Shown piece by piece: positions 38,191 through 50,456 of a stretch of DNA of 64,000 bases; within the stretch, counting starts at the first letter, position 1; every line of letters begins with the position of its first letter. Under the pieces are notes generated by a model that was given only the letters and a program-made list of their open reading frames with translations, was not told the DNA's origin and did no database searches. The DNA is taken from positions 422,040 to 486,039 of the forward strand of contig CAJTOY010000001.1 in NCBI GenBank assembly GCA_910578195.1, written 5' to 3'. A program made the translations under genes and the position numbers. This DNA comes from an uncultured Christensenella sp. Lineage in GTDB: Bacteria; Bacillota; Clostridia; Christensenellales; Borkfalkiaceae.

Positions 38191-41100
38191 TTAAGCTGCA
38201 AAGCTGACTTCGATAGACTGCAAATAAACCGCTTGATTATGGGTTTCGTCGTTAAGTATTGAAATGACCACCTCGCCGCCTTCCGCCATTTCAATGACCA
38301 AAGGCGTGTTGTTTGTCAATCCGCTCTTCTCTACGCCGTTTACTACAATATAATTATTGTTACCCCAATAACTACAATTCAAAGTAATTTTAGCCCCGGC
38401 TGCAACCTTGAACTTAATCGTTGCTTCATTTTTGAACAACCAGTGGCTACCTTGATGGTTTTGTACGCCGTTTAACTCGAAATACTCGTTGCCGTCTATA
38501 CCGTCAGCGGAAATGCTGTGGGTCATGTCGGTGGTAATTTCTTTTACGCCGTAGGATACAGCAATATTGTAGAAATAGTTGTTATTGTTTGTACTCATGA
38601 ACGAAATCATGCAATCTTTTTCTGCCGTATACTCCCACGAAGTACCCGTCTGAGTTTCGCCGAGTTTTACGCCGTCGATTTTTACGTCATAGTTCGTGTA
38701 ACCGTTATACGAAGACACCGCTACTTTTGCGCCCGCCTTAACCTTTATGTTAAGCGTGGTGCCCGAAAGTTGAGAATTGTTTCCGCCGTTATCTCTTATA
38801 TTGCCGCCGCTTGTGAATTCAGCAACGAGATTATTTTCGCTCATAGCTGTTTTATAGTTGCCAGACGAACCGAACGAAATCGTGACGTTTTTGTCAATTA
38901 CGTTCAAGGTTAGTGCAGAGGTTTCAGCGGTGAAGGATACGGTTTCGCCGTCGAGCTCGATTGTGTAGGTGCCCGTGCCCGCCGCCGTCAAGGTTGCGGT
39001 GTTATTCGTGATTACATATCTGCTGTCCGTAAGCGCGGGAAGCGCGAGTTCGAGCAAGCCGCCGCAACCGTCTCCGCCCGAGCATGTTCTCGTAGCCTTG
39101 CCCGTAGCTTCCGCCGTAGGCATATTTTCTTCGGTTACAGTCCAGTCGGAGTAGCTATGAACGTGCACGCCCGCCAGAGAATCGGCTTCGAACGAAATGG
39201 AAGGTTCTTCCTTTAACGTGAAGATTGACTTGCCCTCGGTCGCTCCGGGTGCGATATCGTACTTCTCGGCGGACAATGCGGGAAGAGTCACGGTCTGGGT
39301 TTCGTTTGCAACGCCGCAGTTTTCAACCACGCACGACCTTACAGCCGTACCGTAATTTTCGCCCTCTTCCGCAACCGTTATTTTCCAATCGCCGAAGGTA
39401 TGTCTGTGCTCGTAAGCGAGGTCGATTTCAACGGAAATAGATTTAAGGTATGCCGTTCCGGTTGCGGTTATTACAGTGTAACCCGATAAAGTTACCAGAT
39501 ACTCTACTTCTGCTCCGTTACCGGCAGTTTGCTCAACTCCGTTGATTAAAATTTTTGCACTCGCCTCAAATCCGGAACGCGTGAATCTGAGAGTTGCGCC
39601 TTCGGGAAGATTGAGTGTTATCGAGCTGCCTGCGCCGCCGTATTTAAGCCAGTCGCCGTTTTTAGCACAATTCGTAAATAAAATTTTATCAGTGCTTACA
39701 AGGTCGACATTCTGGTCATAGGTATAGGTATAATCCTCAGTAATACGGGTAAGCGTAAGTTTGGGAGTTTCCGCCTCGAAGGAAACCTCGACGCCGTCAA
39801 CGGTTATGGTATATGTACCCGTACCGCCGGCTTCCAAAGTCGCGGTGTTGTCGGTTACAACGTAATTCGCGTCGGTAAGCGCGGGGATATTTACGACAAC
39901 GGTCTTAGTGTCGTCGTTGTTGCAGCTTTCTGAGGTACAAACCTTAGTCGCCGTGCCTGCCGCTTCGAGCGTAGCCGTTACCGTCCACGCGCCGTAGCTA
40001 TGAACGTGCTGACCTTCGAGCTCGGGAGCTTCGAACGAAATTTTGCCGAATTCGCTTTCATAGGTGTACGTTGCCATGCCGCTTGTAGCGCTTGCCGAAA
40101 TAGTATAATCTTCCGTGGAAAGCGCGGGAAGGGTTACGGACTGGGAATGAGCGGTTTCAAGCTCGCAATCGTCGCAAGTTCTTACCGCGGTGCCGTAATT
40201 GTCGCCGCTTTCTGCGGGAGTGACAACCCATTCGCTGTATTCGTGGGTATGAACGCCCTCTTCCGCTTTGTTGAGCATTATCGAGGTGACATAACAGCCG
40301 TTGGTAATAGGCGAAGCCGCGGTCGCTTTGATTTTAATCACCGCGAAACCGTTCTTATAATTGATAGAAACGTTTTCGGGCTTGCCGTAGTCACCTCCGT
40401 ATGTAGCTACGGATACAGTACCTTCAACGTTCATTTTAATAACGCAACCGGCGTTGAACTGAGCCTGATTTTTACTCGATTCAGCGCGCCATTTCGCGCC
40501 GTCAACCGCGATAACGGTCATGTCGCCGCCGAAAATTGTTTCGCCTTCGAGTGCGGTTTCGTGCAATGCTGCTTCTTCAATAACGTCAGCCGTAAATCTG
40601 TAAGTTTTTTCGGTTATGGTAACGCCTTTGCCGCCGTCCCACGCCGTCGAATAAGTTACGCCGCCATTCGTCGTGCCGAATATTACGGACATATCGGTGT
40701 AATTTTTTACGGTTTCTGCCATAAGGAACTTCATACCCGCAACTTCCGCGGTTATCGCACCGTCGCCCGTATTGTTGTACTCGAAGAATTTCGCGGTTTC
40801 AACCGTAGGCGCAACGCCGCTCATGCTGACGTATCTCGTTCCCGAAGTGCCGCCGTTGTAGCCCGCCTTGGAAATATGCTTGTCGAGTCTGGAATTGATT
40901 ACCGCAACCGCAGCATAAGCGCCCCAAGGACGTCCGATTGCCGTCGTGCCTTCTTCTACTCCCTCTTTATAGGTGAACTCACAGCCGTCGAAAATCGCAC
41001 CGTAGGTTATCGCGTCGTCCTTGTTCTTGTTCATACCCTTGAACGCCGTGATATAGCCCTTGGAATCTATACTTTCGATTTCGCAGTTCTGGAAGTAGGT

Positions 41101-43392
41101 TGTATTGTTTGTACCGAATATGAAGTCGGTTCTGCCGTTTATGTACGAGTTTTTGATTACCTGACGACCCGTGAAGAGTTCGAGGGTGTCCTGATAGCCG
41201 AGCATACGGCAGTTATCTACGACGACCTTATCCGCCTGAATAAGCACTGCAAGCGCGCGGTGTTCGCCGTATTTGGGTCCGAATACCTCGTCGAAGTGCT
41301 CAACCGAGTTGAACCAGTTGGAAATGGTCACGTTTTCGATTACGAAACCGACGGCTTTTTCTCTGACGTTGAGGGTCGCGGTCGAATCGGTCGTATGAAG
41401 GAAGCCGCCTTCGTCCTCTATGCCGTACAGCGAATCCCATTCGATTACGGTATTGCTTGCGTCGGTGTTCGCACCCTTGATTGTGAGGTTGGGAATATTG
41501 ATTTCAAGTTTTTCTTTGTACAGCCCGTCGGCAAGGTTAATAACCTTTTTGGTGTTCTCGCCGAATTCTAATACGTTAAGGAAATCGAGCGCTTGCTGAA
41601 TTGTTTTAAATCTGTAAGCGCCGTCCGCAAGGGTGCCGATATCCGCGTCGGCAAGGGCGCCGTTTACATTAATCGTGACGCTTTCAGCCGTGGTTTCGAT
41701 TGACGAAGCCGCATAATCTGCGACGTATACCTTAAATTCTTTGAAGATTTCGGGGTTCTCAGTCCAGGTTACCTTTATTGTCTGCATACCGGCGGTATTC
41801 TTGTCGTAGCCCGAAACGGTAAAGCCTTCTGTTACTATGAAGGTCTGCTTGCCGCCGTTGAATACCGTTCTTACGGTAAGTCCGTCGAGGTCAAGCTCCT
41901 GTCCCTTGAAGTAGAATTGCTGTACGGCGTGGTTGACGTATGTTCCGTTGCCCGCCGAGGTATTGCCGCCCTGAATTATCGCGTTGAAGCCGAGCTGTAA
42001 CGCCTCTACTTCGTAAACGGTTACGTCGTAGGAAGCCCGGAATTCCTTTTCGTTTTCGTCTTTATACTTGACGACGATTGTATACGTTCCGCCCCTCGTC
42101 TTATCGTACGCGGAGAAATCGATTGTCAAATCCGACATTAAAACGGGTTCAATCATGCCCGTAATTTCACGGACAATCTGGACTTGAAGCATTGACAAAT
42201 CCAAATCCTGCCCGACGATATATTCTACTTTGCCCTTGTTCGAAATCTCGATTTTTTCGACTGCCGTTACGGGAACGGTTGTGTCGAACTTAGCGTAATA
42301 TACGTCCGTAGTGCTGTTTGTTGCGCCGCGGGTAATCGTGTATAAGCCGACCTGGTCAAGGTTGACCGTTACCGCACGGATACCCTTGCCGAGATAGGAA
42401 AGTTCCTCCGTGGTGCCGTCGGGTTTGGTAAGAATAACCTTCTGGTATTGGTCTTCCTTAATCGCGCTCGACCCGTTTTCTGCGTAGAACGTGAGCACGC
42501 CGGGCGAAATCGCGTTGACGGAGAAGCCCCTGTTCGTGCCGTCCATCTGTACGGACTTACCGCCGAAAAGAAGAGTGCCGTTATCGTCGTAAATAGTGTT
42601 GCTGAACGATTCAACCACAACTTCGTCGGAATTATGCTTCAAAACGGGTTTGTCAAGACGCTCACGCGTGCGGACTTTGCCGCCGGGCACGACCCCGAAT
42701 ATACCGCTCGTGATGCCGTTTTCGTGCTGTCCCGCAGTCAGTCTCGTGGGTTCGAAAACATAGGAAACGTCCTTTACCTCTGCGCCGCAGACAACGCACT
42801 TGCCGTCGTCGCCGAAGGTGTGCGCAGAAACGTCGGTGCGCTCGTTACAGCCGTCGACCTTGCAAGTATGGAAGTGATTTATACCGTCGAACATCCATTT
42901 CGTGGTGTCGAAATCGTGATTGTGCTCCCAAAGCGCGTAGAGGCTGAAATTGCCTGTTACCGCCGTTTCGAAATCGTAGGCTTGCGTGCACTCCTCGTCG
43001 GTGAACCAGCCCCCGAACGTCCAGCCTTCGGCTGTGGGGTCGGCAGGTTTAGAAAGCTTGCCGTTTTCATCGACCTTGACCGCCTCTATCTGCGCGCCGT
43101 GGTCGTTCATGACGAACGTAACGGTGAACTGCGTAGCCGCGGGGGTTAAATTTCTTACGTAACCGCAGACGTTACAATCGACGTCGCTGTCGTTGTCGTA
43201 AATGTGGGGCGCTTTGGCGTCAACCTCGTCCTTATGGTCGCAAGTCGCCTCGTGCCAGTGGCTGGTTTCGTCACTTTTCCACTCTTCGGAAAATTTGTGT
43301 TTGTGCGAGCAGCCAAACAATGTGAGGCAGCTTACAGCAGCCGCGCCGAGCGTGAGCGCGGCAATGGCCCTTAAAATTTTTTTGTTCTTCAT
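38191..43392 (-). CDS. Giant lipoprotein with a CE8 pectin methylesterase domain, a Listeria-Bacteroides-type repeat, Ig-like domains and His/Cys-rich modules
   Basis: The start is moved to ATG 43392 (GGAGG RBS); lipobox LFGC. CE8 blocks: HRALAVLIQADK, LGYQDTL, GRTDFIFG. Flg_new-like repeat: FTVTFVMNDHG..GWTFGGWFTDEE..FSLYALW. The C-terminal half contains a twice-repeated unit of about 170 aa (H.H.(Y/F)..W..T..C...). Confidence 0.8.
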   Translation of the reverse strand: MKNKKILRAIAALTLGAAAVSCLTLFGCSHKHKFSEEWKSDETSHWHEATCDHKDEVDAKAPHIYDNDSDVDCNVCGYVRNLTPAATQFTVTFVMNDHGAQIEAVKVDENGKLSKPADPTAEGWTFGGWFTDEECTQAYDFETAVTGNFSLYALWEHNHDFDTTKWMFDGINHFHTCKVDGCNERTDVSAHTFGDDGKCVVCGAEVKDVSYVFEPTRLTAGQHENGITSGIFGVVPGGKVRTRERLDKPVLKHNSDEVVVESFSNTIYDDNGTLLFGGKSVQMDGTNRGFSVNAISPGVLTFYAENGSSAIKEDQYQKVILTKPDGTTEELSYLGKGIRAVTVNLDQVGLYTITRGATNSTTDVYYAKFDTTVPVTAVEKIEISNKGKVEYIVGQDLDLSMLQVQIVREITGMIEPVLMSDLTIDFSAYDKTRGGTYTIVVKYKDENEKEFRASYDVTVYEVEALQLGFNAIIQGGNTSAGNGTYVNHAVQQFYFKGQELDLDGLTVRTVFNGGKQTFIVTEGFTVSGYDKNTAGMQTIKVTWTENPEIFKEFKVYVADYAASSIETTAESVTINVNGALADADIGTLADGAYRFKTIQQALDFLNVLEFGENTKKVINLADGLYKEKLEINIPNLTIKGANTDASNTVIEWDSLYGIEDEGGFLHTTDSTATLNVREKAVGFVIENVTISNWFNSVEHFDEVFGPKYGEHRALAVLIQADKVVVDNCRMLGYQDTLELFTGRQVIKNSYINGRTDFIFGTNNTTYFQNCEIESIDSKGYITAFKGMNKNKDDAITYGAIFDGCEFTYKEGVEEGTTAIGRPWGAYAAVAVINSRLDKHISKAGYNGGTSGTRYVSMSGVAPTVETAKFFEYNNTGDGAITAEVAGMKFLMAETVKNYTDMSVIFGTTNGGVTYSTAWDGGKGVTITEKTYRFTADVIEEAALHETALEGETIFGGDMTVIAVDGAKWRAESSKNQAQFNAGCVIKMNVEGTVSVATYGGDYGKPENVSINYKNGFAVIKIKATAASPITNGCYVTSIMLNKAEEGVHTHEYSEWVVTPAESGDNYGTAVRTCDDCELETAHSQSVTLPALSTEDYTISASATSGMATYTYESEFGKISFEAPELEGQHVHSYGAWTVTATLEAAGTATKVCTSESCNNDDTKTVVVNIPALTDANYVVTDNTATLEAGGTGTYTITVDGVEVSFEAETPKLTLTRITEDYTYTYDQNVDLVSTDKILFTNCAKNGDWLKYGGAGSSITLNLPEGATLRFTRSGFEASAKILINGVEQTAGNGAEVEYLVTLSGYTVITATGTAYLKSISVEIDLAYEHRHTFGDWKITVAEEGENYGTAVRSCVVENCGVANETQTVTLPALSAEKYDIAPGATEGKSIFTLKEEPSISFEADSLAGVHVHSYSDWTVTEENMPTAEATGKATRTCSGGDGCGGLLELALPALTDSRYVITNNTATLTAAGTGTYTIELDGETVSFTAETSALTLNVIDKNVTISFGSSGNYKTAMSENNLVAEFTSGGNIRDNGGNNSQLSGTTLNIKVKAGAKVAVSSYNGYTNYDVKIDGVKLGETQTGTSWEYTAEKDCMISFMSTNNNNYFYNIAVSYGVKEITTDMTHSISADGIDGNEYFELNGVQNHQGSHWLFKNEATIKFKVAAGAKITLNCSYWGNNNYIVVNGVEKSGLTNNTPLVIEMAEGGEVVISILNDETHNQAVYLQSIEVSFAA

Positions 43393-43453
43393 TATTCCTC
43401 CAAAAATATTTATTTTAAGCACCCCAGAAATGCGGGGGTGCCATGAAGATTAG

Positions 43454-45208
43454 TTATGCACCCTGAGAGTCGCCCGTGATTGCGAATTGTACGTCGGAGA
43501 ATTCGACGGTTATGCCTCTGTTTGCAAATAAGCAAAGATACATATAGTCGTTATCTACCGAATATACATCAAAATCGGGGTAGGATTCAGTATAGGTGTT
43601 TTCGCCGTCGACAAACGTTACGGTGAACGAATTGTCCGTCTTGGAAATCGAAACCGTATACGTCGAACCTTCGGCAACGGTAACCGGATTCTTGGGGTTA
43701 GCCATTTTACCCGCCGTATAGCTGAATATTGCGCCTTTGTCGATAACCGCGCCCGCCATTAAGCAGTCGCTTTTAATCGTGGCGTCGCTGGTATTTATGT
43801 AGATATCGTCGCGAATCATCATACCGAAGCCGGTCTGGTTGTTTGCCGACGTAGTCTTTGTAACTATTTTTACGGTCGCGCTTGCAGTAAAGTTTTTGTT
43901 AGCGTCAATCTGGATAAACGCGCCGGCAAAGCCATAAGACGCGCCAGCAAACTTACCGTTGTTCGCGCCGTTGCTTACGGTGAACTTGCCGTCGGCGTTG
44001 GTTACCGAGAATTTTTCTATTTTGTCTTTGCCGCCGACGTCGCCCATAACCGTCTTATACCAGCTTTGCCCCGCAACCGAGCCGATGTACTGTTCTTCGT
44101 GCGCCGTGGGGTCGAACTGAGTGTATGCGGCTTTTACGAAATCCGCTTTTATGGCGTTGGGCAATTCGGTCGCCTTGTCGGGCTTCGCGATATCTGCCTT
44201 GACATAATTTTTGAGGGAGCAATCGGTCGCTTTGAGCGCGTTGGCAAGCTCGTACGCGACAGTCTTTGCGCCGAAATAATTGAGGTGGGTCGTGTCCTCG
44301 CCGGTGGGAGTTTTAACGCCTTCCGCTTCGTTATACGAGGTGTGCGCGTGATAATTGAGCGCTTCCGCGCCGAGTGAAATATAGTCCGCTTTGGTTATCG
44401 AGGTCAAATCGATAACCGTAGTGTTCGTCGCCGCGCCGAGCGTCTTTATTGCGCCCGCATAGTCGCCGTCAGCCGTTATGTGTCCGTTTGCCGCGTCGTA
44501 TTTGGCGGTATCGGCGCTGTATCTTACAATCGGGGTACAGAGTACGGGCGTAGCCTTTTTCTCGACAGCAAGCTTAACGTAATTTTCATATAACGTATAC
44601 TGGAACGAGGGCCCCTTTGCCGAGGTCGCCGTATTGTGGTCGGGCGCGGGGTCGGTAAAGCGCGCCGCTTCGTTTTTCTGGTCGTTGTGACCGAAACCGA
44701 TTATGAGATAATCGCCCTCGGTTATGCTGTTTTGAAGGGTTGTATAATTTGCCTCGGTGAGGAAGCTTAACGAACTTCTGCCCGAAAGCGCGAGGTTTAC
44801 AATCTGATCCTCGGAGCAGTTTATGTAATTGTAAAGCTGAGTGCCGTAGCCGTAGCGGGGCATATAATAATTGTCGGTAAACGAGCAAACCGTGGAATCG
44901 CCAACTAAATAAATTTTACCCGAAAGGGTTTCGGGTGCGATTTCCCTCGTGTAACCGCATACGTTGCAATCGGGGTCGCGGTCGTTGTCGAACTCGTGCG
45001 CCGCTAAACCGTCTTTTAAATCGGTGTGCTCGCAAGTAGCTTCGTGCCAGTGGTTGGTTGCATCGCTCTTCCAATCGCTGCCGTAAGTGTGCTTATGCAC
45101 TTCTTCTTCGGGCTTGTCGCCATTACACGCCGCCATGCCGAAGCAGCCGAAGGCTGCAACTCCGCTCATTACCGTTGCTAATAAAGAGTGAATTACTTTT
45201 TTTCTCAT
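43454..45208 (-). CDS. Lipoprotein SGNH/CE12-type (rhamnogalacturonan acetylesterase-like) esterase with a C-terminal beta-sandwich domain
   Basis: The start is moved to ATG 45208 (AGGAGA RBS); lipobox MAAC. SGNH blocks: YLVGDSTV, ALSGRSS, IGFGHNDQ, DTTHLN. The N-terminal His/Cys module is shared with the CE8 protein. Confidence 0.8.
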   Translation of the reverse strand: MRKKVIHSLLATVMSGVAAFGCFGMAACNGDKPEEEVHKHTYGSDWKSDATNHWHEATCEHTDLKDGLAAHEFDNDRDPDCNVCGYTREIAPETLSGKIYLVGDSTVCSFTDNYYMPRYGYGTQLYNYINCSEDQIVNLALSGRSSLSFLTEANYTTLQNSITEGDYLIIGFGHNDQKNEAARFTDPAPDHNTATSAKGPSFQYTLYENYVKLAVEKKATPVLCTPIVRYSADTAKYDAANGHITADGDYAGAIKTLGAATNTTVIDLTSITKADYISLGAEALNYHAHTSYNEAEGVKTPTGEDTTHLNYFGAKTVAYELANALKATDCSLKNYVKADIAKPDKATELPNAIKADFVKAAYTQFDPTAHEEQYIGSVAGQSWYKTVMGDVGGKDKIEKFSVTNADGKFTVSNGANNGKFAGASYGFAGAFIQIDANKNFTASATVKIVTKTTSANNQTGFGMMIRDDIYINTSDATIKSDCLMAGAVIDKGAIFSYTAGKMANPKNPVTVAEGSTYTVSISKTDNSFTVTFVDGENTYTESYPDFDVYSVDNDYMYLCLFANRGITVEFSDVQFAITGDSQGA

Positions 45209-45365
45209 AGATATTCTCCTATATGTGTTTGCATTGCGAAGCAATGCAAACAGACCCATGGGTCTGAAAAAAATTTTTTGTCGATAGTTATTATAGCACA
45301 TTTATTATGTCATATCAAGACATTTTTTGATAATTTTTATAAATTATGTAACTTTTTTATATGAC

Positions 45366-45410: not shown

Positions 45411-45746
45411 TTAATTCTGGCTTTCGGGCGGCGAGGCGGGCTCGGACGAAAGTCCTACGACGTTGCTTACCGCCATTGAAAAGGCAATGCCCTGCCCCTC
45501 GGTTTTAAGCCCCGCGGACTTGTACAGCGCGTGCAAAACGTCGTCCTTGATATTCTCGGGTACGAGAATCATTACCATTTCCTTATCGGGCTGGATTGTT
45601 ATTTTGAAAAACTGCTCCGCCTCTTTGTTCGCGGTGCCCTTGGCGTGGATAACCGTACCGCCTCGCGCGCCGACTTCCTTTGCGGCGTCCATAACCAGCT
45701 CGGAATAGCCCGCATTGACTATACAGATAATTACCTCGTAGTTCAT
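45411..45746 (-). CDS. PII-like (GlnB-fold) small signalling protein
   Basis: 111 aa. It shows a beta-alpha-beta-beta-alpha-beta pattern with a T-loop-like segment HAKGTANKEAEQFF. Its start overlaps the upstream stop (TAATG). Confidence 0.65.
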   Translation of the reverse strand: MNYEVIICIVNAGYSELVMDAAKEVGARGGTVIHAKGTANKEAEQFFKITIQPDKEMVMILVPENIKDDVLHALYKSAGLKTEGQGIAFSMAVSNVVGLSSEPASPPESQN

Positions 45747-46174
45747 TATTTTTCCTCCTTACCGGTCATTTTGGCGTTACTTAAAAATCTGAAAATAAGC
45801 GAACCGATTACGCTTGTAAACGGCACTGTGAACGCGACGCCCTTGCCGTCCTTTATAGTCCTGAATTTTTCATCGAGCATATTAATTGCGTCTTTGATTT
45901 TGTCCTGACGTATGATGCTGAAAATCACGGCTTTATCCGATTCCGCAAGTCCGAGATAAACGAGCATTTTCGCGTCGGCGGTGCCGTGACCGAACGCCGT
46001 CACCTGCATATTGACTTCGAGCGACTGGATTAAGTCGGCGTAGTACTCCGCTTTCTTTCTGTCGACGATTGTAATCAGCAGTTCGAGCTTCATGGAAGTG
46101 ACGGTGTGCGCCGCCGCACCCTTCTTTTCGGGCTTTCTGCGCGGTGCGCGTTTTTCTGTGTTTTTATCAGCCAT
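45746..46174 (-). CDS. PII-like small signalling protein with a basic N-terminal extension
   Basis: 142 aa. The core LELLITIVDRKKAEYYADLIQSLEVNMQVTAFGHGTA.. resembles the neighbour and PII-family proteins. AGGAG RBS. Confidence 0.6.
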   Translation of the reverse strand: MADKNTEKRAPRRKPEKKGAAAHTVTSMKLELLITIVDRKKAEYYADLIQSLEVNMQVTAFGHGTADAKMLVYLGLAESDKAVIFSIIRQDKIKDAINMLDEKFRTIKDGKGVAFTVPFTSVIGSLIFRFLSNAKMTGKEEK

Positions 46175-46182
46175 AAAAGCTC

Positions 46183-47715
46183 CTACTTAAAATAAATGAT
46201 TTGTTCGTCGTCGGCGGCAAGGATACGCTTCATTGCAAGCTTGTTGCGCACTTTCGACAGCATTACCGCCTTGAAGCCTAAAATCTGTATCATAATCAAA
46301 GGGGTCATTGCGACCATTGCAACCACGCCGAAGGCGTTGTTTAAAATCGCGTCGGTGTCGCCCCCGAGTGCGACGCATGCGCCTATCACGAGCGGGAGAA
46401 TAAAGCTCGACGTCAGCGGGCCGCTCGCAACGCCGCCCGAATCGAACGCTATCGCCGTGTAAATCTTCGGCACGAAGAACGAAAGCCCCAACGATATCAG
46501 ATAGCCGGGTATAAGATAATACAAAATCGAGAAACCGAAAATCGTCCTCAGCATAGAAAGCCCGATTGAAATTCCGACCGCTATCGAAAGCGCAATCAGC
46601 ATTTCGAGCTTTTTGACGCCGCCGCCCGTTATTTCCTCTACCTGCTTGTTGAGAACGTGCACGGCGGGTTCGGCGAGGACGACAACCATACCGAGCACAA
46701 GCCCGAACACGACCAGCACGGGCTGGCTGAATTCTGCGATTTTCATTCCGAGTTTGAAGCCTATCGGCATAAACCCGACCTCGACCGCGACAAGGAAAAT
46801 TACAAGCCCCAAAAAGGTGTAAGCTATGCCTATTCCTATCTGGATTAATTTCTGTTTGGGAAGCTTCAAGATTATAAACTGCAATATGAAGAAAAACGCA
46901 ACTACAAGCCCGAGCGCGATTGCAACGTCCTTTAATTTGTTTAGCACTATCCGTCCGAATTCGCCGAGACTTTCCGAAACCGTGACGTATTCGTCAAGCC
47001 CGCTCATCGAGCTTGTGTCGCCGTTCGAAAACAGCATAAGCATCATGACCGCTATCATGGGACCTATCGAGCAAAGCGCGATAAGTCCGAAGGAGTTTTC
47101 GTTGGCGTTGCGCCCGCCTATCGTCGTGGATATACCAACGCCGAGCGCCATGATAAACGGAACGGTTATCGGACCGGTGGTCACGCCGCCCGAGTCGAAC
47201 GATAAAGGTATAAAAGAAATTTTGCCGTTTTCTATCAGTATCGCGCAGACCGCGAAAAGCATCAGATAGAAAAACATCAAAAGCATCGATAAATTCAAGT
47301 GAAAGACGATTTTCGCAACCGCCACCACCAGAAACAAACCCACGCCTATGCCGACGGTGATTACAAGCAGCATTTTGGGGCTAATTACGCTTTCGACCTG
47401 CCCCGCAAGCACGGACAAATCGGGCTCGGCAATGGTTATCAGAACGCCCATAACAAAGCATACCGAAAGCAGAATTGCAAGCTTTTTCGACTTGGTAAGA
47501 CCCGAGCCCACATAGCTGCCCATGGGCGTCATTGCCAAATCCGCGCCGAGGTTGAAAAGCCCTATACCCAGCACCAGAAACAAAGCGGAAACTGCGAAAA
47601 CGACCATTTCCTGCACCGTAAAGCCCATAAAAGGCAACAGTATAAGCACTATTGCCGTGACGGGTAAAACGGATATTAACGATTCTTTTAATTTGGCAAA
47701 CAATATTTTTCGCAT
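46183..47715 (-). CDS. DUF1538-family polytopic membrane protein (internally duplicated)
   Basis: 510 aa and highly hydrophobic. Its two halves each contain FDSGGV(T/A)(T/S)GP(I/L)T. From recollection, this architecture is annotated as DUF1538 and usually sits next to PII-like genes. Confidence 0.65.
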   Translation of the reverse strand: MRKILFAKLKESLISVLPVTAIVLILLPFMGFTVQEMVVFAVSALFLVLGIGLFNLGADLAMTPMGSYVGSGLTKSKKLAILLSVCFVMGVLITIAEPDLSVLAGQVESVISPKMLLVITVGIGVGLFLVVAVAKIVFHLNLSMLLMFFYLMLFAVCAILIENGKISFIPLSFDSGGVTTGPITVPFIMALGVGISTTIGGRNANENSFGLIALCSIGPMIAVMMLMLFSNGDTSSMSGLDEYVTVSESLGEFGRIVLNKLKDVAIALGLVVAFFFILQFIILKLPKQKLIQIGIGIAYTFLGLVIFLVAVEVGFMPIGFKLGMKIAEFSQPVLVVFGLVLGMVVVLAEPAVHVLNKQVEEITGGGVKKLEMLIALSIAVGISIGLSMLRTIFGFSILYYLIPGYLISLGLSFFVPKIYTAIAFDSGGVASGPLTSSFILPLVIGACVALGGDTDAILNNAFGVVAMVAMTPLIMIQILGFKAVMLSKVRNKLAMKRILAADDEQIIYFK

Positions 47716-47760
47716 ATATTTATATCATATCATATGAAAATTGATTTTTCAAAATAATTT

Positions 47761-49239
47761 TCAAGCCCTGAAAAGAAAATATTTATTTAAATGTATATTT
47801 GTCAGCATTTCCGCCGCCGAGGAGGTTATTTCGGTTTCCGACACCTCGGCGATTTTAACCCCGCCCGCATTGTAGAACGCCCAGCCCTCGGGAACGGCAA
47901 ACTCAACTTCTTTGAGATTTTCACAGCCGTCGAAGGCGTATTGACCGATTTCGGTCACGCTTGCGGGTATGAATATTTTCTCCAACCCGATCAAGCCGCG
48001 GAACGCTTCGCTTATAATCGCTGTCACGGGCTTGCCCCTATAAGTTTCTGGAATTATAATTTCGGGTACGCCGTTTTCTATACCGAGCACGGCGTAGGAA
48101 TTTCCGTCCGACAACAGCCCGAAAACAAGCCCTTTCGTCGCGGCTGCGTCCAGCCCGCAATATATGCAGATGTCGTCGGCGAAATTATGCCCGTGCGCGG
48201 ACACAACCTCGGTTTCGAGCACTTTTTCGCAGACCGTGCACTCGGTATGCTTTGCCCCGTCGCTTTCGCAATCCTCTTCAACGTCGGTAATCCACCCGCC
48301 CGCAACGTGACCCGCGGCGGGAATTATTTCGCTTTCTATGCGGATTTTACAAAAAGCGCACTCTCTGAACTTTAACCCGTCTTTCTCGCAAGAGGGTTGA
48401 ATTTCAGTTATCCACTCGCTCAAAGCGTGCGGCAGCTTCTCGACCGTCCGCGTTTCGGTATGTGTTTCGTCGTTTTTGCAGACGCGCGTTTCAAGCCCTT
48501 CCTGCGTGCACATCGGCTCGGTCACAGTCGTCCATTCGGAAAAGTTGTGACCCATCGCGGGAATTGTCTCACTATCCGAACGCAAGCCGCAAACGCTACA
48601 CTCTCTATACTTTAAGCCGTCCGTCTCGCACGTTTCCTGTGTTATAAAATCTTTTATAACGTGATTGATTTTCTCTGTCGTGCGGGTTTCCGTATGGCTT
48701 TCGTCGTGCGCGCAGACCCGCCTTTCCTCGCCGTGCTCGGTGCAAGTGGCGCTTTTCACTTCTTCCCATTCGCCGAACGCGTGACCGAGCGGCGGTATTT
48801 CTACAAACGTGCTGTAATTACAGCGCGTACAATATTCATATTCCGCGTGCCCCGCTTCCGTGCAGGTTGCGTTTTCTGCCACGACATTTTCCAAGGCGTG
48901 GTTCAGCGCGGGTATTGTTATCTTTTCGGTACCCTCGCCGCAACGCCTGCACTGTCTGTATGCTTCGTGTCCTTCTTCGGTGCATGTTGCGGGCTTTTCT
49001 TCGTATTCGATATAATCGTGACCGAGCGAAGCCATAACCCCCGTCTGTTTTTCGCCGCACGAACAATAGCGTTCGCGTTCGCCGTCCTCGGTACAAGTTC
49101 TGTTTTTCGTAATAACCCATTCATCGTACATATGGCGATGAACGGGTTCGTGTAAGACAAAATATTCACAGCCCGCAAAGAGGGCGGCACAAAATACGGT
49201 ACAAAATACTATCAAAAATATTAACGGAAGTTTTTTCAT
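47761..49239 (-). CDS. Lipoprotein with eight tandem repeats of about 38-40 aa rich in His/Cys, plus a C-terminal BspA-type leucine-rich repeat region
   Basis: Lipobox FAGC. The repeats look like H.(F/Y).EW.....TC(T/E).(E/D)G....R.C..C. The C-terminus IIIPETYRGKPVTAIISEAFRGLIGLEKIFIPASVTEIGQYAFDGCENLKEV is LRR_5-like. Confidence 0.7.
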   Translation of the reverse strand: MKKLPLIFLIVFCTVFCAALFAGCEYFVLHEPVHRHMYDEWVITKNRTCTEDGERERYCSCGEKQTGVMASLGHDYIEYEEKPATCTEEGHEAYRQCRRCGEGTEKITIPALNHALENVVAENATCTEAGHAEYEYCTRCNYSTFVEIPPLGHAFGEWEEVKSATCTEHGEERRVCAHDESHTETRTTEKINHVIKDFITQETCETDGLKYRECSVCGLRSDSETIPAMGHNFSEWTTVTEPMCTQEGLETRVCKNDETHTETRTVEKLPHALSEWITEIQPSCEKDGLKFRECAFCKIRIESEIIPAAGHVAGGWITDVEEDCESDGAKHTECTVCEKVLETEVVSAHGHNFADDICIYCGLDAAATKGLVFGLLSDGNSYAVLGIENGVPEIIIPETYRGKPVTAIISEAFRGLIGLEKIFIPASVTEIGQYAFDGCENLKEVEFAVPEGWAFYNAGGVKIAEVSETEITSSAAEMLTNIHLNKYFLFRA

Positions 49240-49970
49240 TCGTGTTTATAATTTTTGCGATATTGTAAGGGTGTGATTTTATATTTTTTCTTGAATTTTT
49301 GCTGGAAATGGCTTTGCGACGCGAACTTGAACAGCGAGGAAATTTCCGCTATGCTTTTATCCGAAAATCTCAGCATCGCCGCCGCGGCTTTCAGCCGCTC
49401 GTCCTGAATAAAGGTTTTTATGCTCACGCCGTAAACCTGCTTGAATTTTCTGCTCAGATACGACGGGTTGTAGCCGCAGTGCTCGGCTACGTCGGGAAGG
49501 GTGATTGCCGATTTTAAGTTGGAGGCGATATAGTCGGTACAGTTCGACAGCTCGTCATAGCGGTCGGCGCCGTTATCGGTTTCCCCGCCGAAACGGTTGC
49601 AAAAATCGCGGAACGCCGTGACGAACAAATGATATACGTCGTCGCCGTCCGAACAGTTTTCGACAAGGCGCATATACATATTTTCAAGCATAATCACCGC
49701 CGAACTCTTGTTTCTGCTCATGACCGTGGCGCGCATATAGCCTAAAATGACTATGAACCCGTTCTTCTGTCTGCGAAGGCTGTCGGTGACGGACACGGCG
49801 AAACAACTATGGCTGTATTCGCCTGTATACCACTCTTTTGCGAGCTCCTCGTCTTTGAGTAAAACCGCACCGCACAGCTTTTCGAAGTCGCACAGTCTGT
49901 AAACCGTTTCGTCGTTGCTCATAACTGCGCCGTACAGTTTTTCTATTTCTTCTTTTTTACCGTCGGACAT
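49236..49970 (-). CDS. AraC-family transcriptional regulator
   Basis: C-terminal double HTH (ITLPDVAEHCGYNPSYLSRKFKQVYG...IAEISSLFKFASQSHFQQKFKKKY). ATGA overlap with the downstream repeat protein. Confidence 0.85.
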   Translation of the reverse strand: MSDGKKEEIEKLYGAVMSNDETVYRLCDFEKLCGAVLLKDEELAKEWYTGEYSHSCFAVSVTDSLRRQKNGFIVILGYMRATVMSRNKSSAVIMLENMYMRLVENCSDGDDVYHLFVTAFRDFCNRFGGETDNGADRYDELSNCTDYIASNLKSAITLPDVAEHCGYNPSYLSRKFKQVYGVSIKTFIQDERLKAAAAMLRFSDKSIAEISSLFKFASQSHFQQKFKKKYKITPLQYRKNYKHE

Positions 49971-50024: not shown

Positions 50025-50456
50025 TTATATCTTTCTTCTTGCAACTGCTATTCTGATTTTACGTTTGACAGGCGCCTCCGCGCGAACCTCGGCGGGTTTT
50101 ACCTCCGTCGGGAGCGGCTCGGGTTTCACTTCCGCGGCGACGATGACTTCGGGCTCGGCAGCAGCCGCAACTTCCTCTTGTACTTCTTCCACGGCTTCGA
50201 CGGGCCTCGCGTCGATTTCGATATCCATACCGCCCGCTTTCAGCATATTTATGTACGCAACCGCGCACGGGTAAATGCTTGTCTTTTTACAGCCGCGGCA
50301 GAAAGGCGCGTACATTCCGCAGAGGTCAAAGCCGCTTAAAAGACTGTTTTTATATTTGTCTGCGTCGATTACAAGCTGCAATCTTTGCAGATTTTCCTTT
50401 GTAAGCTTCTTCGGCATTGTATTTAAAAGCTGTAAAGGCGAATTGCTGTCCCACAT
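50025..50456 (-). CDS. hypothetical protein with a Cys-rich N-domain, acidic/Pro-rich linker and basic C-terminus
   Basis: ATG at 50456 is preceded by GGGAG at 9 nt. It contains CGMYAPFCRGCKKTSIYPCAVAY, then an E/V/A/P-rich segment, then KRKIRIAVARRKI. I recognise no family. Confidence 0.5.
   Translation of the reverse strand: MWDSNSPLQLLNTMPKKLTKENLQRLQLVIDADKYKNSLLSGFDLCGMYAPFCRGCKKTSIYPCAVAYINMLKAGGMDIEIDARPVEAVEEVQEEVAAAAEPEVIVAAEVKPEPLPTEVKPAEVRAEAPVKRKIRIAVARRKI

What the first reader, a model, noticed from the sequence alone, without database searches (positions are those of the whole stretch)
47761..49239. Eight tandem extracellular His/Cys repeats (putative zinc-knuckle-like units) fused to LRRs and coupled to an AraC regulator
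After the lipobox the protein consists of eight full repeats of 38-40 aa plus one partial repeat. The pattern is H-x-(F/Y/L)-x-(E/D)-W ... (T/S/M)C-(T/E)-x-(E/D/H)-G ... (R/E)-x-C-x-x-C.

Repeats 4 and 6 replace the second CxxC Cys with a His (VCAHDESH, VCKNDETH). So every unit keeps a four-ligand His/Cys set, which suggests one metal site per repeat. A BspA-type LRR domain follows.

Metal-knuckle arrays on the outside of a Gram-positive cell are unusual. The gene overlaps an AraC regulator by ATGA, so the pair probably forms a regulated unit.
Basis: partly seen in the sequence, partly recalled or inferred. Interest (0 to 1): 0.6.

Follow-up and report, generated by a model that had tools for sequence, protein, structure and literature searches.

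The report
Zinc-stapled stalk repeats on a lipoprotein
This gene encodes a membrane-anchored surface protein whose long stalk is built from eight copies of a very common but uncurated His/Cys repeat, in which neighbouring repeats most likely share one zinc ion each, holding up a small leucine-rich binding head. It is an ordinary member of a large family that has barely been described.

Summary
Window 47761..49239 (-) encodes a 492-aa lipoprotein with eight 38-40-aa His/Cys repeats, a short H..CxxC cap, a BspA-type LRR and a 4-bp ATGA overlap with an AraC gene.

The repeat is common rather than unusual. A profile of the eight copies hits 33,706 protein clusters, in arrays of up to 64 copies, and at least 9 other ORFs in this genome. 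No Pfam or NCBIfam model covers it. The only described relatives are the AlphaFold-predicted "ZBD1/ZBD2" or "CTD2/CTD4" zinc domains of the Thomasclavelia ramosa IgA protease (2025).

Statistics on 5,324 repeats show that each metal site is shared between neighbouring repeats: Cys1 of repeat i joins His and CxxC of repeat i+1. Loss of Cys1 is compensated by an extra His/Cys in the next repeat (73% vs 9.6%). Arrays end either with an H..CxxC cap or with a Cys1-less repeat. This predicts nine sites here. The genome has no Dsb/VKOR genes.

The likely function is a rigid zinc-stapled stalk that presents the LRR head.

The AraC link is species-specific. Orthologues of the lipoprotein lack AraC, and AraC orthologues lack the lipoprotein.

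Verdict: a new member of a known, poorly characterised kind; moderate interest.

The parts
49236..49970 (-). AraC-family regulator (244 aa). Its stop codon overlaps the lipoprotein start codon (ATGA).
   Evidence: HTH_AraC 3.7e-23 and HTH_18 1.2e-20. The overlap is read from the sequence. No orthologue was found in 40 related genomes. Orthologues in metagenomes sit next to DUF1538 or GDSL esterase genes.
49168..49239 (-). Signal peptide and lipobox (MKKLPLIFLIVFCTVFCAALFAG|C; Cys24).
   Evidence: Read from the sequence. Lgt and LspA are present in the genome. Orthologues P0002-5, P0010 and P0012 also have lipoboxes.
49021..49140 (-). Repeat 1 (residues 34-73). It starts with H34-x-H36 and has a CxC third-ligand spacing. 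Predicted site 1 is H34, H36, C59, C61.
   Evidence: HxH is conserved in 8 of the 9 orthologues aligned in A3, the exception being P0009. HxH is enriched in array-first repeats: 15% vs 3.7%.
48901..49020 (-). Repeat 2 (residues 74-113). Predicted site 2 is C49, H74, C97, C100.
48784..48900 (-). Repeat 3 (residues 114-152). Predicted site 3 is C86, H114, C137, C140.
   Evidence: The AF2 confidence is lower here (pLDDT 63-67).
48664..48783 (-). Repeat 4 (residues 153-192), the C-x5-H variant. Predicted site 4 is C126, H153, C176, H182.
   Evidence: The Cx5H class makes up 5% of 5,324 repeats, whereas His at that position occurs in 0.7% of CxxC repeats.
48550..48663 (-). Repeat 5 (residues 193-230). 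Predicted site 5 is C166, H193, C214, C217.
48430..48549 (-). Repeat 6 (residues 231-270), the C-x5-H variant. Predicted site 6 is C204, H231, C254, H260.
48310..48429 (-). Repeat 7 (residues 271-310). Predicted site 7 is C244, H271, C294, C297.
   Evidence: pLDDT is 94-96.
48190..48309 (-). Repeat 8 (residues 311-350). Predicted site 8 is C284, H311, C334, C337.
48154..48189 (-). Terminal cap HNFADDICIYCG (residues 351-362). Predicted site 9 is C324, H351, C358, C361.
   Evidence: Array-last repeats that keep Cys1 are followed by an H..CxxC cap in 294 of 471 cases. Those without Cys1 are followed by one in 4 of 174 cases.
47872..48144 (-). Short BspA-type leucine-rich repeat head (residues 366-456).
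   Evidence: PF13306 at 1.4e-8. PDB sequence hits 4fs7, 4gt6 and 6mlx. Foldseek hit 6mlx at rmsd 1.0 A over 79 residues. pLDDT is about 90.
47761..47871 (-). C-terminal tail (residues 457-492) plus stop codon. The model confidence is low, but the segment aligns with the orthologues' tails.
45411..47715 (-). Downstream DUF1538 membrane protein (46183..47715), a 142-aa protein (45746..46174) and a P-II-like protein (45411..45746). This is the conserved neighbour of the lipoprotein in all orthologous loci.
   Evidence: Pfam. Synteny in L001-L009. A promoter-like site lies at 47752..47724 in the 45-bp gap.

Best explanation
The gene encodes a lipid-anchored surface protein of a Christensenellaceae-like gut Clostridium. 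Between the N-terminal lipid anchor and a small C-terminal BspA-type LRR head lies a rod of eight small three-stranded beta-sheet modules.

Consecutive modules are joined by tetrahedral Cys/His metal sites, most likely Zn2+. The Cys in the beta1-beta2 loop of repeat i (TC-T-E-x-G) combines with three ligands of repeat i+1: the His that opens it, and the CxxC (or CxC, or C-x5-H) at its beta2-beta3 hairpin.

The first site uses H34-x-H36 in place of a preceding Cys. The last site is completed by the short cap H351..C358xxC361. This gives nine sites that use all 24 cysteines of residues 49-361.

The metal makes the chain of sheets stiff and extended. By extrapolation from the IgA-protease domain, the rod would be roughly 25-30 nm long. 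The stalk therefore projects the LRR ligand-binding or adhesion head through or above the cell wall.

What is shown: the repeat anatomy, family membership, the compensatory ligand pattern, the beta-sheet modules, the LRR fold, and the absence of Dsb genes. What is inferred: the identity of the metal, the rigidity and length of the stalk, and the adhesive role of the head.

In this species the gene is probably co-transcribed and translationally coupled with an AraC gene, but that pairing is a local juxtaposition and not a conserved regulatory module.
For: Repeat and family:
- define the repeats.
- Profile A1 hits 33,706 clusters at E<=1e-3 and 2,904 at E<=1e-30, with arrays of up to 64 copies.
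- Partner domains are cohesin, SLH, dockerin, fn3, CAP, LRR_5 and others, all extracellular.
- Eight of the nine paralogues in the genome have signal peptides, lipoboxes or a transmembrane segment.

Metal ligands, from 5,324 repeats:
- His is present in 98%, Cys1 in 92% and Cys2 in 100%.
- The third ligand is CxxC in 84%, CxC in 5%, Cx5H in 5% and CxxxC in 1%.
- His at Cys2+6 occurs in 0.7% of CxxC repeats but 49% of repeats that lack the CxxC cysteine.

Inter-repeat site:
- After a repeat without Cys1, the next repeat has HxH in 109 of 216 cases, against 60 of 4,297 otherwise.
- It has any extra Cys/His near its His in 157 of 216 cases, against 416 of 4,338 otherwise.
- The same-repeat control shows no positive link.
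- Within proteins, the fraction is higher in 68 of 90 proteins, and the 109 HxH cases give 107 unique junction sequences in 50 proteins.
- Terminal caps follow 62% of last repeats that keep Cys1 and 2.3% of those that lack it.

Structure:
- AF2 with 121 sequences gives mean pLDDT 80 (88-96 in repeats 4-8), with three strands per repeat.
- Beta2 runs from Cys1+4 to Cys2, so Cys1 and Cys2 of one repeat lie at opposite ends of a strand.
- The LRR matches TpLRR at rmsd 1.0 A.

Literature:
- The same repeat in T. ramosa IgAse (PDB sequence hit 9qa6, E 5e-13 and 3e-14) is predicted to have Cys/His zinc sites at subdomain interfaces (PMC12237041).
- Isolated CTD2 is a fully extended rod by SAXS (PMC12415215).

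Redox context:
- No DSBA, Thioredoxin_4, DsbB or VKOR was found in a 98.75%-complete genome, and the control genomes gave the expected hits.
- Lgt and LspA are present.
Against: - No metal has been measured for any member of the family, and the IgAse domains are themselves only predicted.
- I could not read model coordinates, so the ligand geometry was not measured here.
- The repeats used in the statistics are related by duplication and descent, so the P-values are inflated. The effect sizes and the within-protein comparison are the meaningful figures.
- About 4% of repeats lack a recognisable third ligand, and 27% of Cys1-less junctions show no obvious compensation.
- Repeats 2-3 of this protein are modelled with only moderate confidence (pLDDT 49-67).
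- The stalk role is argued from architecture. The repeats might themselves bind ligands.
- The LRR head here is very short (about 2-3 units), so its binding capacity is uncertain.
Confidence: 0.72

Rival explanations
1. The cysteines form extracellular disulfides, as in EGF-like or other Cys-rich surface repeats, and no metal is bound.
For: The protein is extracellular and has 24 cysteines in the array, an even number. Cys-rich extracellular repeats are usually disulfide-bonded (general knowledge).
Against: There are three Cys per repeat plus a 98%-conserved His. Cys is replaced by His at a shifted position (Cx5H, 5% of repeats). Loss of Cys1 is compensated by an extra His in the next repeat, which makes no sense for disulfides. 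No DsbA, DsbB, VKOR or Thioredoxin_4 was found in the genome. The family is centred on strictly anaerobic gut Clostridia. The IgAse structures and models show no disulfides (PMC12237041).
Confidence: 0.07
2. The repeats do bind metal, but their purpose is metal handling, for example zinc capture, storage or sensing at the cell surface, or zinc-dependent cell-cell adhesion as in Aap/SasG. They would not be a passive structural stalk.
For: Nine predicted Zn sites per chain, and tens of sites in larger relatives. The PNAS authors speculate that zinc may regulate these domains.
Against: Each site has four protein ligands, so the coordination is saturated. That is typical of tight structural sites and leaves none free for bridging. 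The repeats are attached to very diverse heads and anchors (cohesin, dockerin, SLH, CAP, LRR, protease), as expected of a generic spacer. No zinc-uptake genes lie nearby.
Confidence: 0.1
3. AraC and the lipoprotein form a dedicated regulator-target cassette.
For: The 4-bp ATGA overlap implies co-transcription and translational coupling. The same arrangement occurs in a 95%-identical metagenome contig, L005. The best NCBIfam match of the AraC is TIGR04094, 'YSIRK-targeted surface antigen transcriptional regulator', at 5.8e-23 but far below the cut-off (81.5 vs 200 bits).
Against: Orthologous lipoprotein loci L002/3, L007/8 and L009 have no AraC, and upstream of the gene L001 and L006 have large genes with no Pfam hit on record, not an AraC. 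AraC orthologues (50-64% identity) sit directly before DUF1538 without the lipoprotein (L040, L045), or before GDSL esterases homologous to window 43454..45301 (L043/44, L046). No AraC orthologue was found in 24 same-genus genomes.
Confidence: 0.2

Closest known systems
ZBD1/ZBD2 (PLoS Pathog 2025, PMC12237041), also called CTD2/CTD4 (PNAS 2025, PMC12415215), of the Thomasclavelia ramosa M64 IgA protease (IgAse; PDB sequence 9qa6)
   Same: It is the same sequence repeat: profile hits of E 5e-13 (A1) and 3e-14 (A4) cover the whole 40-residue unit at chain residues 939-978, plus partial copies at 854-883 and 1107-1133. The modules are three-stranded antiparallel sheets placed end to end. Cys/His sites are predicted at the interfaces between sheets. 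The array lies between the functional domain and the cell anchor and was proposed to act as a stalk ('periscope' domain). SAXS shows an extended rod.
   Different: IgAse has only 2-3 divergent copies per domain. In the two copies that align best, Cys1 is replaced by Ala, and the sites are mostly 2His+2Cys. The array there is C-terminal to the enzyme and LPXTG-anchored. Here there are eight canonical Cys3His copies plus a cap, an N-terminal lipid anchor and an LRR head. In both cases the zinc sites are predictions only; that region is not resolved in the deposited maps.
Zinc ribbons and zinc knuckles (rubredoxin, ribosomal protein L32, TFIIB, C2H2 finger linkers)
   Same: The R-x-C-x-x-C-G beta-hairpin shows weak local similarity to rubredoxin, L32, TFIIB and C2H2 'TGEKPYxCxxCG' sequences (E 1e-6 to 0.5). 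One JGI record even names a family member 'ribosomal protein L32'.
Periscope/stalk proteins of Gram-positive bacteria (SasG/Aap G5-E repeats, Rib, SHIRT)
   Same: An elongated chain of single-layer beta-sheet modules lacking a classical hydrophobic core lies between the anchor and the functional head. The number of copies varies among orthologues, from about 4 to 11.
   Different: There is no sequence or fold relation. Canonical periscope proteins have near-identical DNA repeats that allow rapid length change, whereas these repeats share 24-38% identity and show no DNA-level tandem repeat. Rigidity here would come from intramolecular Cys/His metal sites. In Aap, zinc acts between molecules through His/Asp/Glu.
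BspA-type LRR surface proteins (Pfam LRR_5; TpLRR 6mlx, BACOVA_04585 4fs7)
   Same: The C-terminal 90 residues match LRR_5 by sequence and structure.
   Different: Only about 2-3 LRR units are present here, while most orthologues have more. No ligand is known.

Membership tests
IgAse ZBD / CTD2-CTD4-type His/Cys repeat (uncurated family) | Sequence motif H-x12/13-C-x3-G-x5/6-C-x2-C over about 39 residues, recognisable by a profile | tested here: met
   A leave-one-out profile finds 8 copies at i-E 1e-14 to 1e-18. Profiles A1 and A4 hit the IgAse chain 9qa6 at 5e-13 and 3e-14.
IgAse ZBD / CTD2-CTD4-type His/Cys repeat (uncurated family) | [quoted passage not shown] | tested here: met
   The AF2 secondary structure shows three strands per repeat, with pLDDT 88-96 in repeats 4-8.
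IgAse ZBD / CTD2-CTD4-type His/Cys repeat (uncurated family) | Four-ligand Cys/His sites are formed at the interfaces between modules | tested here: met
   Met at the sequence level: cross-repeat compensation (73% vs 9.6%) and the rule for terminal caps (62% vs 2.3%). The geometry itself was not measured.
IgAse ZBD / CTD2-CTD4-type His/Cys repeat (uncurated family) | Zinc is actually bound | not testable with these tools
   No metal analysis exists for any member. ICP-MS or anomalous scattering is needed.
Pfam LRR_5 (BspA-type LRR) | HMM score above the gathering cut-off and an LRR solenoid fold | tested here: met
   35.2 bits against a cut-off of 27.7. Foldseek probability 1.00 to 6mlx, 4oju, 4fs7 and 4gt6.
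Bacterial lipoprotein | Signal peptide ending in a lipobox [LVI..][ASTG][GAS]C, with Lgt and LspA in the genome | tested here: met
   The sequence is ...ALFAG|C24. Lgt scores 1.9e-29 and LspA 3.6e-24. The match to the PROSITE PS51257 pattern was judged from memory.
Canonical periscope proteins (length-variable, near-identical repeats) | Highly identical tandem DNA repeats that allow variation in copy number | tested here: not met
   TRF finds no array in the gene. The repeats are 24-38% identical to the first copy at the protein level. The 95%-identical relative P0001 has the same eight copies.
TIGR04094 (YSIRK-adjacent surface-antigen AraC regulator), for the upstream AraC | Score above the curated cut-off (200 bits) and adjacency to a YSIRK surface protein | tested here: not met
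   81.5 bits. The neighbour has a lipobox, not a YSIRK signal.
Zinc ribbon (Pfam Zn_Ribbon_TF, Zn_ribbon_3, rubredoxin-like) | Two CxxC knuckles within one small domain, and a score above the Pfam cut-off | tested here: not met
   Only sub-threshold local hits were found. There is one CxxC per repeat, and the ligand set spans two repeats.

The most novel reading that the evidence does not exclude
The repeat may define a large, uncurated and structurally unsolved class of extracellular 'zinc-stapled' beta-sheet rods. There are at least 33,706 protein clusters, with arrays of up to 64 copies. Each zinc would be shared between consecutive modules, so stalk stiffness, and with it the display of adhesins, enzymes and cellulosome parts on anaerobic Firmicutes, would depend on zinc availability in the gut (for example under calprotectin-mediated zinc withholding by the host). 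The cross-repeat ligand rule derived here gives a sequence grammar that predicts site composition in any member: Cys1(i) + His/CxxC(i+1), HxH at the start of an array, and H..CxxC caps at its end.
Probability: 0.3. Interest if true: 0.7.

Novelty: new member of a known kind. Interest (0 to 1): 0.42.

Why it matters
The protein itself is one ordinary member of its family. The family, however, is very large in gut and rumen Clostridia, is attached to many kinds of surface machinery, has no Pfam or NCBIfam model and has no experimental structure or metal analysis. Two 2025 papers on one IgA protease are the only descriptions, and both rest on AlphaFold models.

The comparative ligand analysis done here gives independent, sequence-based support for three points. 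The sites are real. They are metal sites rather than disulfides. They bridge neighbouring repeats.

This protein is a compact construct for testing that idea: 8 canonical repeats plus a cap in about 330 residues. Such a test would allow tens of thousands of 'hypothetical' surface proteins to be annotated.

Tried and rejected
- **Single-sequence AF2** was useless, with mean pLDDT 36. Only the run with an alignment was informative.
- **Model coordinates** are not exposed to the Python box, so ligand distances could not be measured.
- **Foldseek of the whole model against the PDB** matched only the LRR part. The 'hits' to complement C3 and similar proteins have rmsd of 27-43 A and are meaningless.
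- **The search for related loci with the 121-sequence alignment** failed because no stretch was conserved enough. The 10-sequence alignment returned only 4 loci.
- **Functional link between the lipoprotein and DUF1538/P-II.** The adjacency holds in all 6 orthologous loci, but 20 related genomes with DUF1538 at 44-76% identity have no repeat ORF within 4 kb upstream. It is therefore a sub-clade feature and was left as an aside.
- **Horizontal acquisition of the AraC gene.** Its GC content (0.479) does not differ from its neighbours at 0.48-0.53.
- **Phylum-wide genome draw with the single-repeat profile.** Only 6 of 401 genomes matched at E<=1e-6. The distribution is patchy, or the narrow 8-copy profile and the per-match threshold are too strict. 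This figure is not an estimate of prevalence.
- **Literature search for DUF1538 + P-II** was spoiled by word-start matching of 'P-III'.
- **The search of earlier findings by sequence** returned nothing.
Full report
**1. What is there**

The ORF at window 47761..49239 (minus strand) encodes 492 residues. It begins with a hydrophobic signal peptide that ends in the lipobox LFAG|C24. Genes for Lgt and LspA are present in the genome.

From residue 34 to 350 there are eight units of 38-40 residues:
- Each unit opens with His (residues 36, 74, 114, 153, 193, 231, 271, 311).
- Each usually has a Trp five residues later.
- Each has a T-C-T-E-x-G loop (Cys1 at 49, 86, 126, 166, 204, 244, 284, 324).
- Each has a second Cys 10-11 residues after Cys1 (59, 97, 137, 176, 214, 254, 294, 334).
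- Each has a third ligand: C-x2-C in five repeats, C-x-C in repeat 1, and C-x5-H in repeats 4 and 6.

A twelve-residue piece, H351-NFADDI-C358-IY-C361-G, follows. After it come a BspA-type LRR (PF13306, 1.4e-8) and a 36-residue tail.

A profile built only from repeats of other proteins recovers all eight copies at E 1e-14 to 1e-18 each. The copies are old: 24-38% identical to the first copy, and no DNA-level tandem repeat.

**2. The repeat is very common and uncurated**

- Neither Pfam (copy of 2025) nor NCBIfam covers it, in this protein or in four canonical relatives.
- A word-indexed search returned 671 relatives. In them the same repeat is joined to LRR_5, cohesin, SLH, dockerin, fn3, CAP, Ig-like, Flg_new, CHAP and other extracellular domains (the domain names for those accession numbers are partly from memory).
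- The 8-copy profile, scored against 1.84 billion cluster representatives, found 33,706 proteins at E<=1e-3, 15,334 at <=1e-10 and 2,904 at <=1e-30. Arrays reach 64 copies, in proteins of up to 7,000 residues.
- In the window's own genome (2.06 Mb, 48% GC, 98.75% complete) at least nine other ORFs carry the repeat. Eight of them have a signal peptide, a lipobox or a membrane segment.
- Related MAG records are titled 'uncultured Christensenellaceae bacterium', 'Clostridiales bacterium UBA11940' and 'uncultured Clostridia bacterium'.
- An even draw of 400 genomes of the phylum gave single-repeat matches in only a handful. The family is therefore patchy across the phylum and expanded in particular lineages.

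**3. What is already known about it**

The only significant match among PDB sequences is chain 9qa6_A, the Thomasclavelia ramosa IgA protease. The matching parts of that chain are two regions described in two papers.

- Tran and colleagues call them CTD2 and CTD4 (PMC12415215). They propose 'an uncharacterized periscope domain fold'. PDBeFold gives no hit. SAXS of isolated CTD2 fits a fully extended rod.

No metal analysis or experimental structure of the repeat exists. Foldseek with my own model found nothing real for the repeat region.

**4. Structure prediction**

AF2 with 121 homologues gave mean pLDDT 80.4, with 88-96 for repeats 4-8 and about 90 for the LRR. Each repeat is a three-stranded antiparallel sheet:
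- Beta1 follows the His.
- Beta2 runs from about Cys1+4 to Cys2.
- Beta3 follows the CxxC turn.

Cys1 and Cys2 of one repeat therefore sit at opposite ends of a 7-residue strand and cannot share an ion. His, Cys2 and Cys3 of one repeat lie at the same end, next to the Cys1 loop of the preceding repeat.

**5. Sequence test of the site architecture**

I aligned 5,324 repeats from 271 proteins to the profile. His is present 10-16 residues before Cys1 in 98% of repeats. Cys1 is present in 92%, the Gly at Cys1+4 in 98% and Cys2 in 100%.

- **(a) Third ligand.** It is CxxC in 84%, CxC in 5%, C-x5-H in 5% and CxxxC in 1%; none is recognisable in 4%. His at Cys2+6 occurs in 0.7% of CxxC repeats but in 49% of repeats that lack the CxxC cysteine. 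The ligand is conserved even when its chemistry and position change.
- **(b) Cross-repeat compensation.** When Cys1 of repeat i is missing, repeat i+1 carries H-x-H in 109 of 216 cases, against 60 of 4,297 otherwise. It carries any extra Cys/His beside its canonical His in 157 of 216 cases (73%), against 416 of 4,338 (9.6%). The control, which compares a repeat's own Cys1 with its own N-terminal segment, shows no positive association. The 109 cases give 107 distinct junction sequences in 50 proteins. Within proteins the effect goes the same way in 68 of 90.
- **(c) Array starts.** Array-first repeats, which have no preceding Cys1, are enriched in HxH (15% vs 3.7%). This protein and 8 of the 9 orthologues in alignment A3 (all but P0009) start with HxH.
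- **(d) Array ends.** Array-last repeats that keep Cys1 are followed by a short H..CxxC cap in 294 of 471 cases. Those without Cys1 are followed by one in 4 of 174 cases. Shuffled tails give 16%.

Repeats are not independent samples, so the Fisher P-values (1e-97 to 1e-112) overstate the significance. The effect sizes are large and consistent all the same.

The rule that follows is: site = Cys1(i) + His(i+1) + Cys2(i+1) + Cys3(i+1). Applied to this protein it gives nine sites:
1. H34, H36, C59, C61
2. C49, H74, C97, C100
3. C86, H114, C137, C140
4. C126, H153, C176, H182
5. C166, H193, C214, C217
6. C204, H231, C254, H260
7. C244, H271, C294, C297
8. C284, H311, C334, C337
9. C324, H351, C358, C361

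These sites use every cysteine between residues 49 and 361.

**6. Metal or disulfide**

His-for-Cys substitution and His-based compensation are expected for a metal site and not for disulfides. The genome has no recognisable DsbA, Thioredoxin_4, DsbB or VKOR, while the control genomes gave the expected hits. The organism belongs to strictly anaerobic gut Clostridia. The beta2-beta3 hairpin (R-x-C-x-x-C-G) shows weak local resemblance to rubredoxin, L32, TFIIB and C2H2 knuckles. Zinc is the most likely ion for a Cys3His or Cys2His2 tetrahedral structural site (general knowledge), but it has not been shown.

**7. Likely function**

The array lies between the lipid anchor and the LRR head. In IgAse it lies between the enzyme and the LPXTG anchor. 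In other relatives it lies next to SLH, cohesin or dockerin modules. That positioning, the SAXS rod and the saturated coordination all point to a stiff spacer.

ZBD1 is modelled as about 110 A long for three modules. Eight modules plus a cap would then span roughly 25-30 nm, which is enough to cross a Gram-positive wall. This is an extrapolation and not a measurement.

The head matches TpLRR and Bacteroides/Faecalibacterium LRR_5 proteins, which are generally considered adhesins or ligand binders. Here it is short, and several orthologues have more LRR units.

The protein evolves quickly. Its orthologues are 44-47% identical, whereas the neighbouring DUF1538 protein is 73-87% identical in the same loci. 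Whole repeats are gained and lost between orthologues. Both are typical of exposed surface proteins. It is not a canonical periscope protein, because its repeats are not near-identical at the DNA level.

**8. The AraC question**

The overlap is real and recurs in a 95%-identical metagenome contig (L005).

Orthologous lipoprotein loci:
- L002/3, L007/8 and L009 have no AraC: L002/3 and L007/8 show DnaE-PFK-PfkB-small Cys protein-lipoprotein-DUF1538-~145 aa-P-II, and in the shorter L009 a 187-aa ORF directly precedes the lipoprotein.
- L001 and L006 have large genes with no Pfam hit on record upstream, not an AraC.

AraC across related genomes:
- Forty related genomes hold no orthologue of this AraC. 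The best match is 31-32% identical.

AraC orthologues at 50-64% identity:
- They sit directly before DUF1538 without any lipoprotein (L040, L045).
- Or they sit before GDSL esterases (L043/44, L046), and the L046 esterase is visibly homologous to the esterase at window 43454..45301.

AraC and the lipoprotein are thus two independently optional inserts at one locus, and in this species they happen to abut. The DUF1538 gene has its own promoter-like site in the 45-bp gap. Co-transcription of the AraC and lipoprotein genes is likely here. A dedicated regulator-target relationship is not supported by comparison across genomes.

**9. Verdict**

The metal-site idea is supported and refined: the sites lie between repeats, there are nine of them, and they act as staples. 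The claims of unusualness and of an AraC module are not supported.

The protein is a new member of a kind that has been described only by prediction in one enzyme. The family is large, uncurated and experimentally untouched, which gives the finding moderate interest beyond this one gene.

Noticed in passing
window 45411..47715 (-); loci L001-L009: In all six orthologous loci the repeat lipoprotein gene lies immediately upstream of a DUF1538 membrane protein, a protein of about 145 aa and a P-II-like protein. In L001 and L006 the DUF1538 start codon follows the lipoprotein stop codon by one base. In contrast, 20 related genomes with DUF1538 at 44-76% identity have no such gene within 4 kb upstream. 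Whether there is a functional link is unknown.
   Followed up: partly
window 43454..45301 (-), residues about 66-115 of the product: The neighbouring GDSL (PaeY-like pectin acetylesterase) lipoprotein carries a His/Cys module of about 50 aa shortly after its lipobox: HKHTYGSDWKSDATNHWHEATCEHTDLKDGLAAHEFDNDRDPDCNVCGY. The same H..H..C..C/H ... H.[FW]...C..CG pattern lies between the last repeat and the LRR in orthologues P0002, P0003, P0005, P0006, P0009 and P0010. It appears to be a second, stand-alone type of putative metal module.
   Followed up: partly
window 49236..49970 (-); loci L040, L043-L046: Orthologues of the AraC regulator (50-64% identity) directly precede either the DUF1538 operon or GDSL esterase genes. 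In the window, a GDSL esterase and a 1,743-aa pectinesterase/Flg_new protein (38191..43422) lie a few genes downstream. The regulator may therefore belong to a pectin-type esterase regulon.
   Followed up: partly
window 50025..50456 (-): A conserved small protein (143 aa; 66-68% identical in L002 and L007) with a Cys cluster (CGMYAPFCRGCKKTSIYPCAVAY) and a low-complexity acidic/Ala-Pro tail always lies between PfkB and the AraC/lipoprotein slot. It has no Pfam family. A hairpin, GGCAAAGC-N6-GCTTTGCC followed by TATTTT, lies between it and the AraC start codon.
   Followed up: no
window 48430..48783 (-) and orthologues (alignment A3): The C-x5-H repeats (repeats 4 and 6) alternate with CxxC repeats. 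In the orthologues this looks like a double-repeat unit of about 80 aa that has been duplicated or deleted as a block.
   Followed up: no
protein P0033: One JGI record names a 780-aa multi-repeat family member 'ribosomal protein L32'. This is evidently a mis-annotation caused by the CxxC hairpin's resemblance to the L32 zinc ribbon.
   Followed up: no
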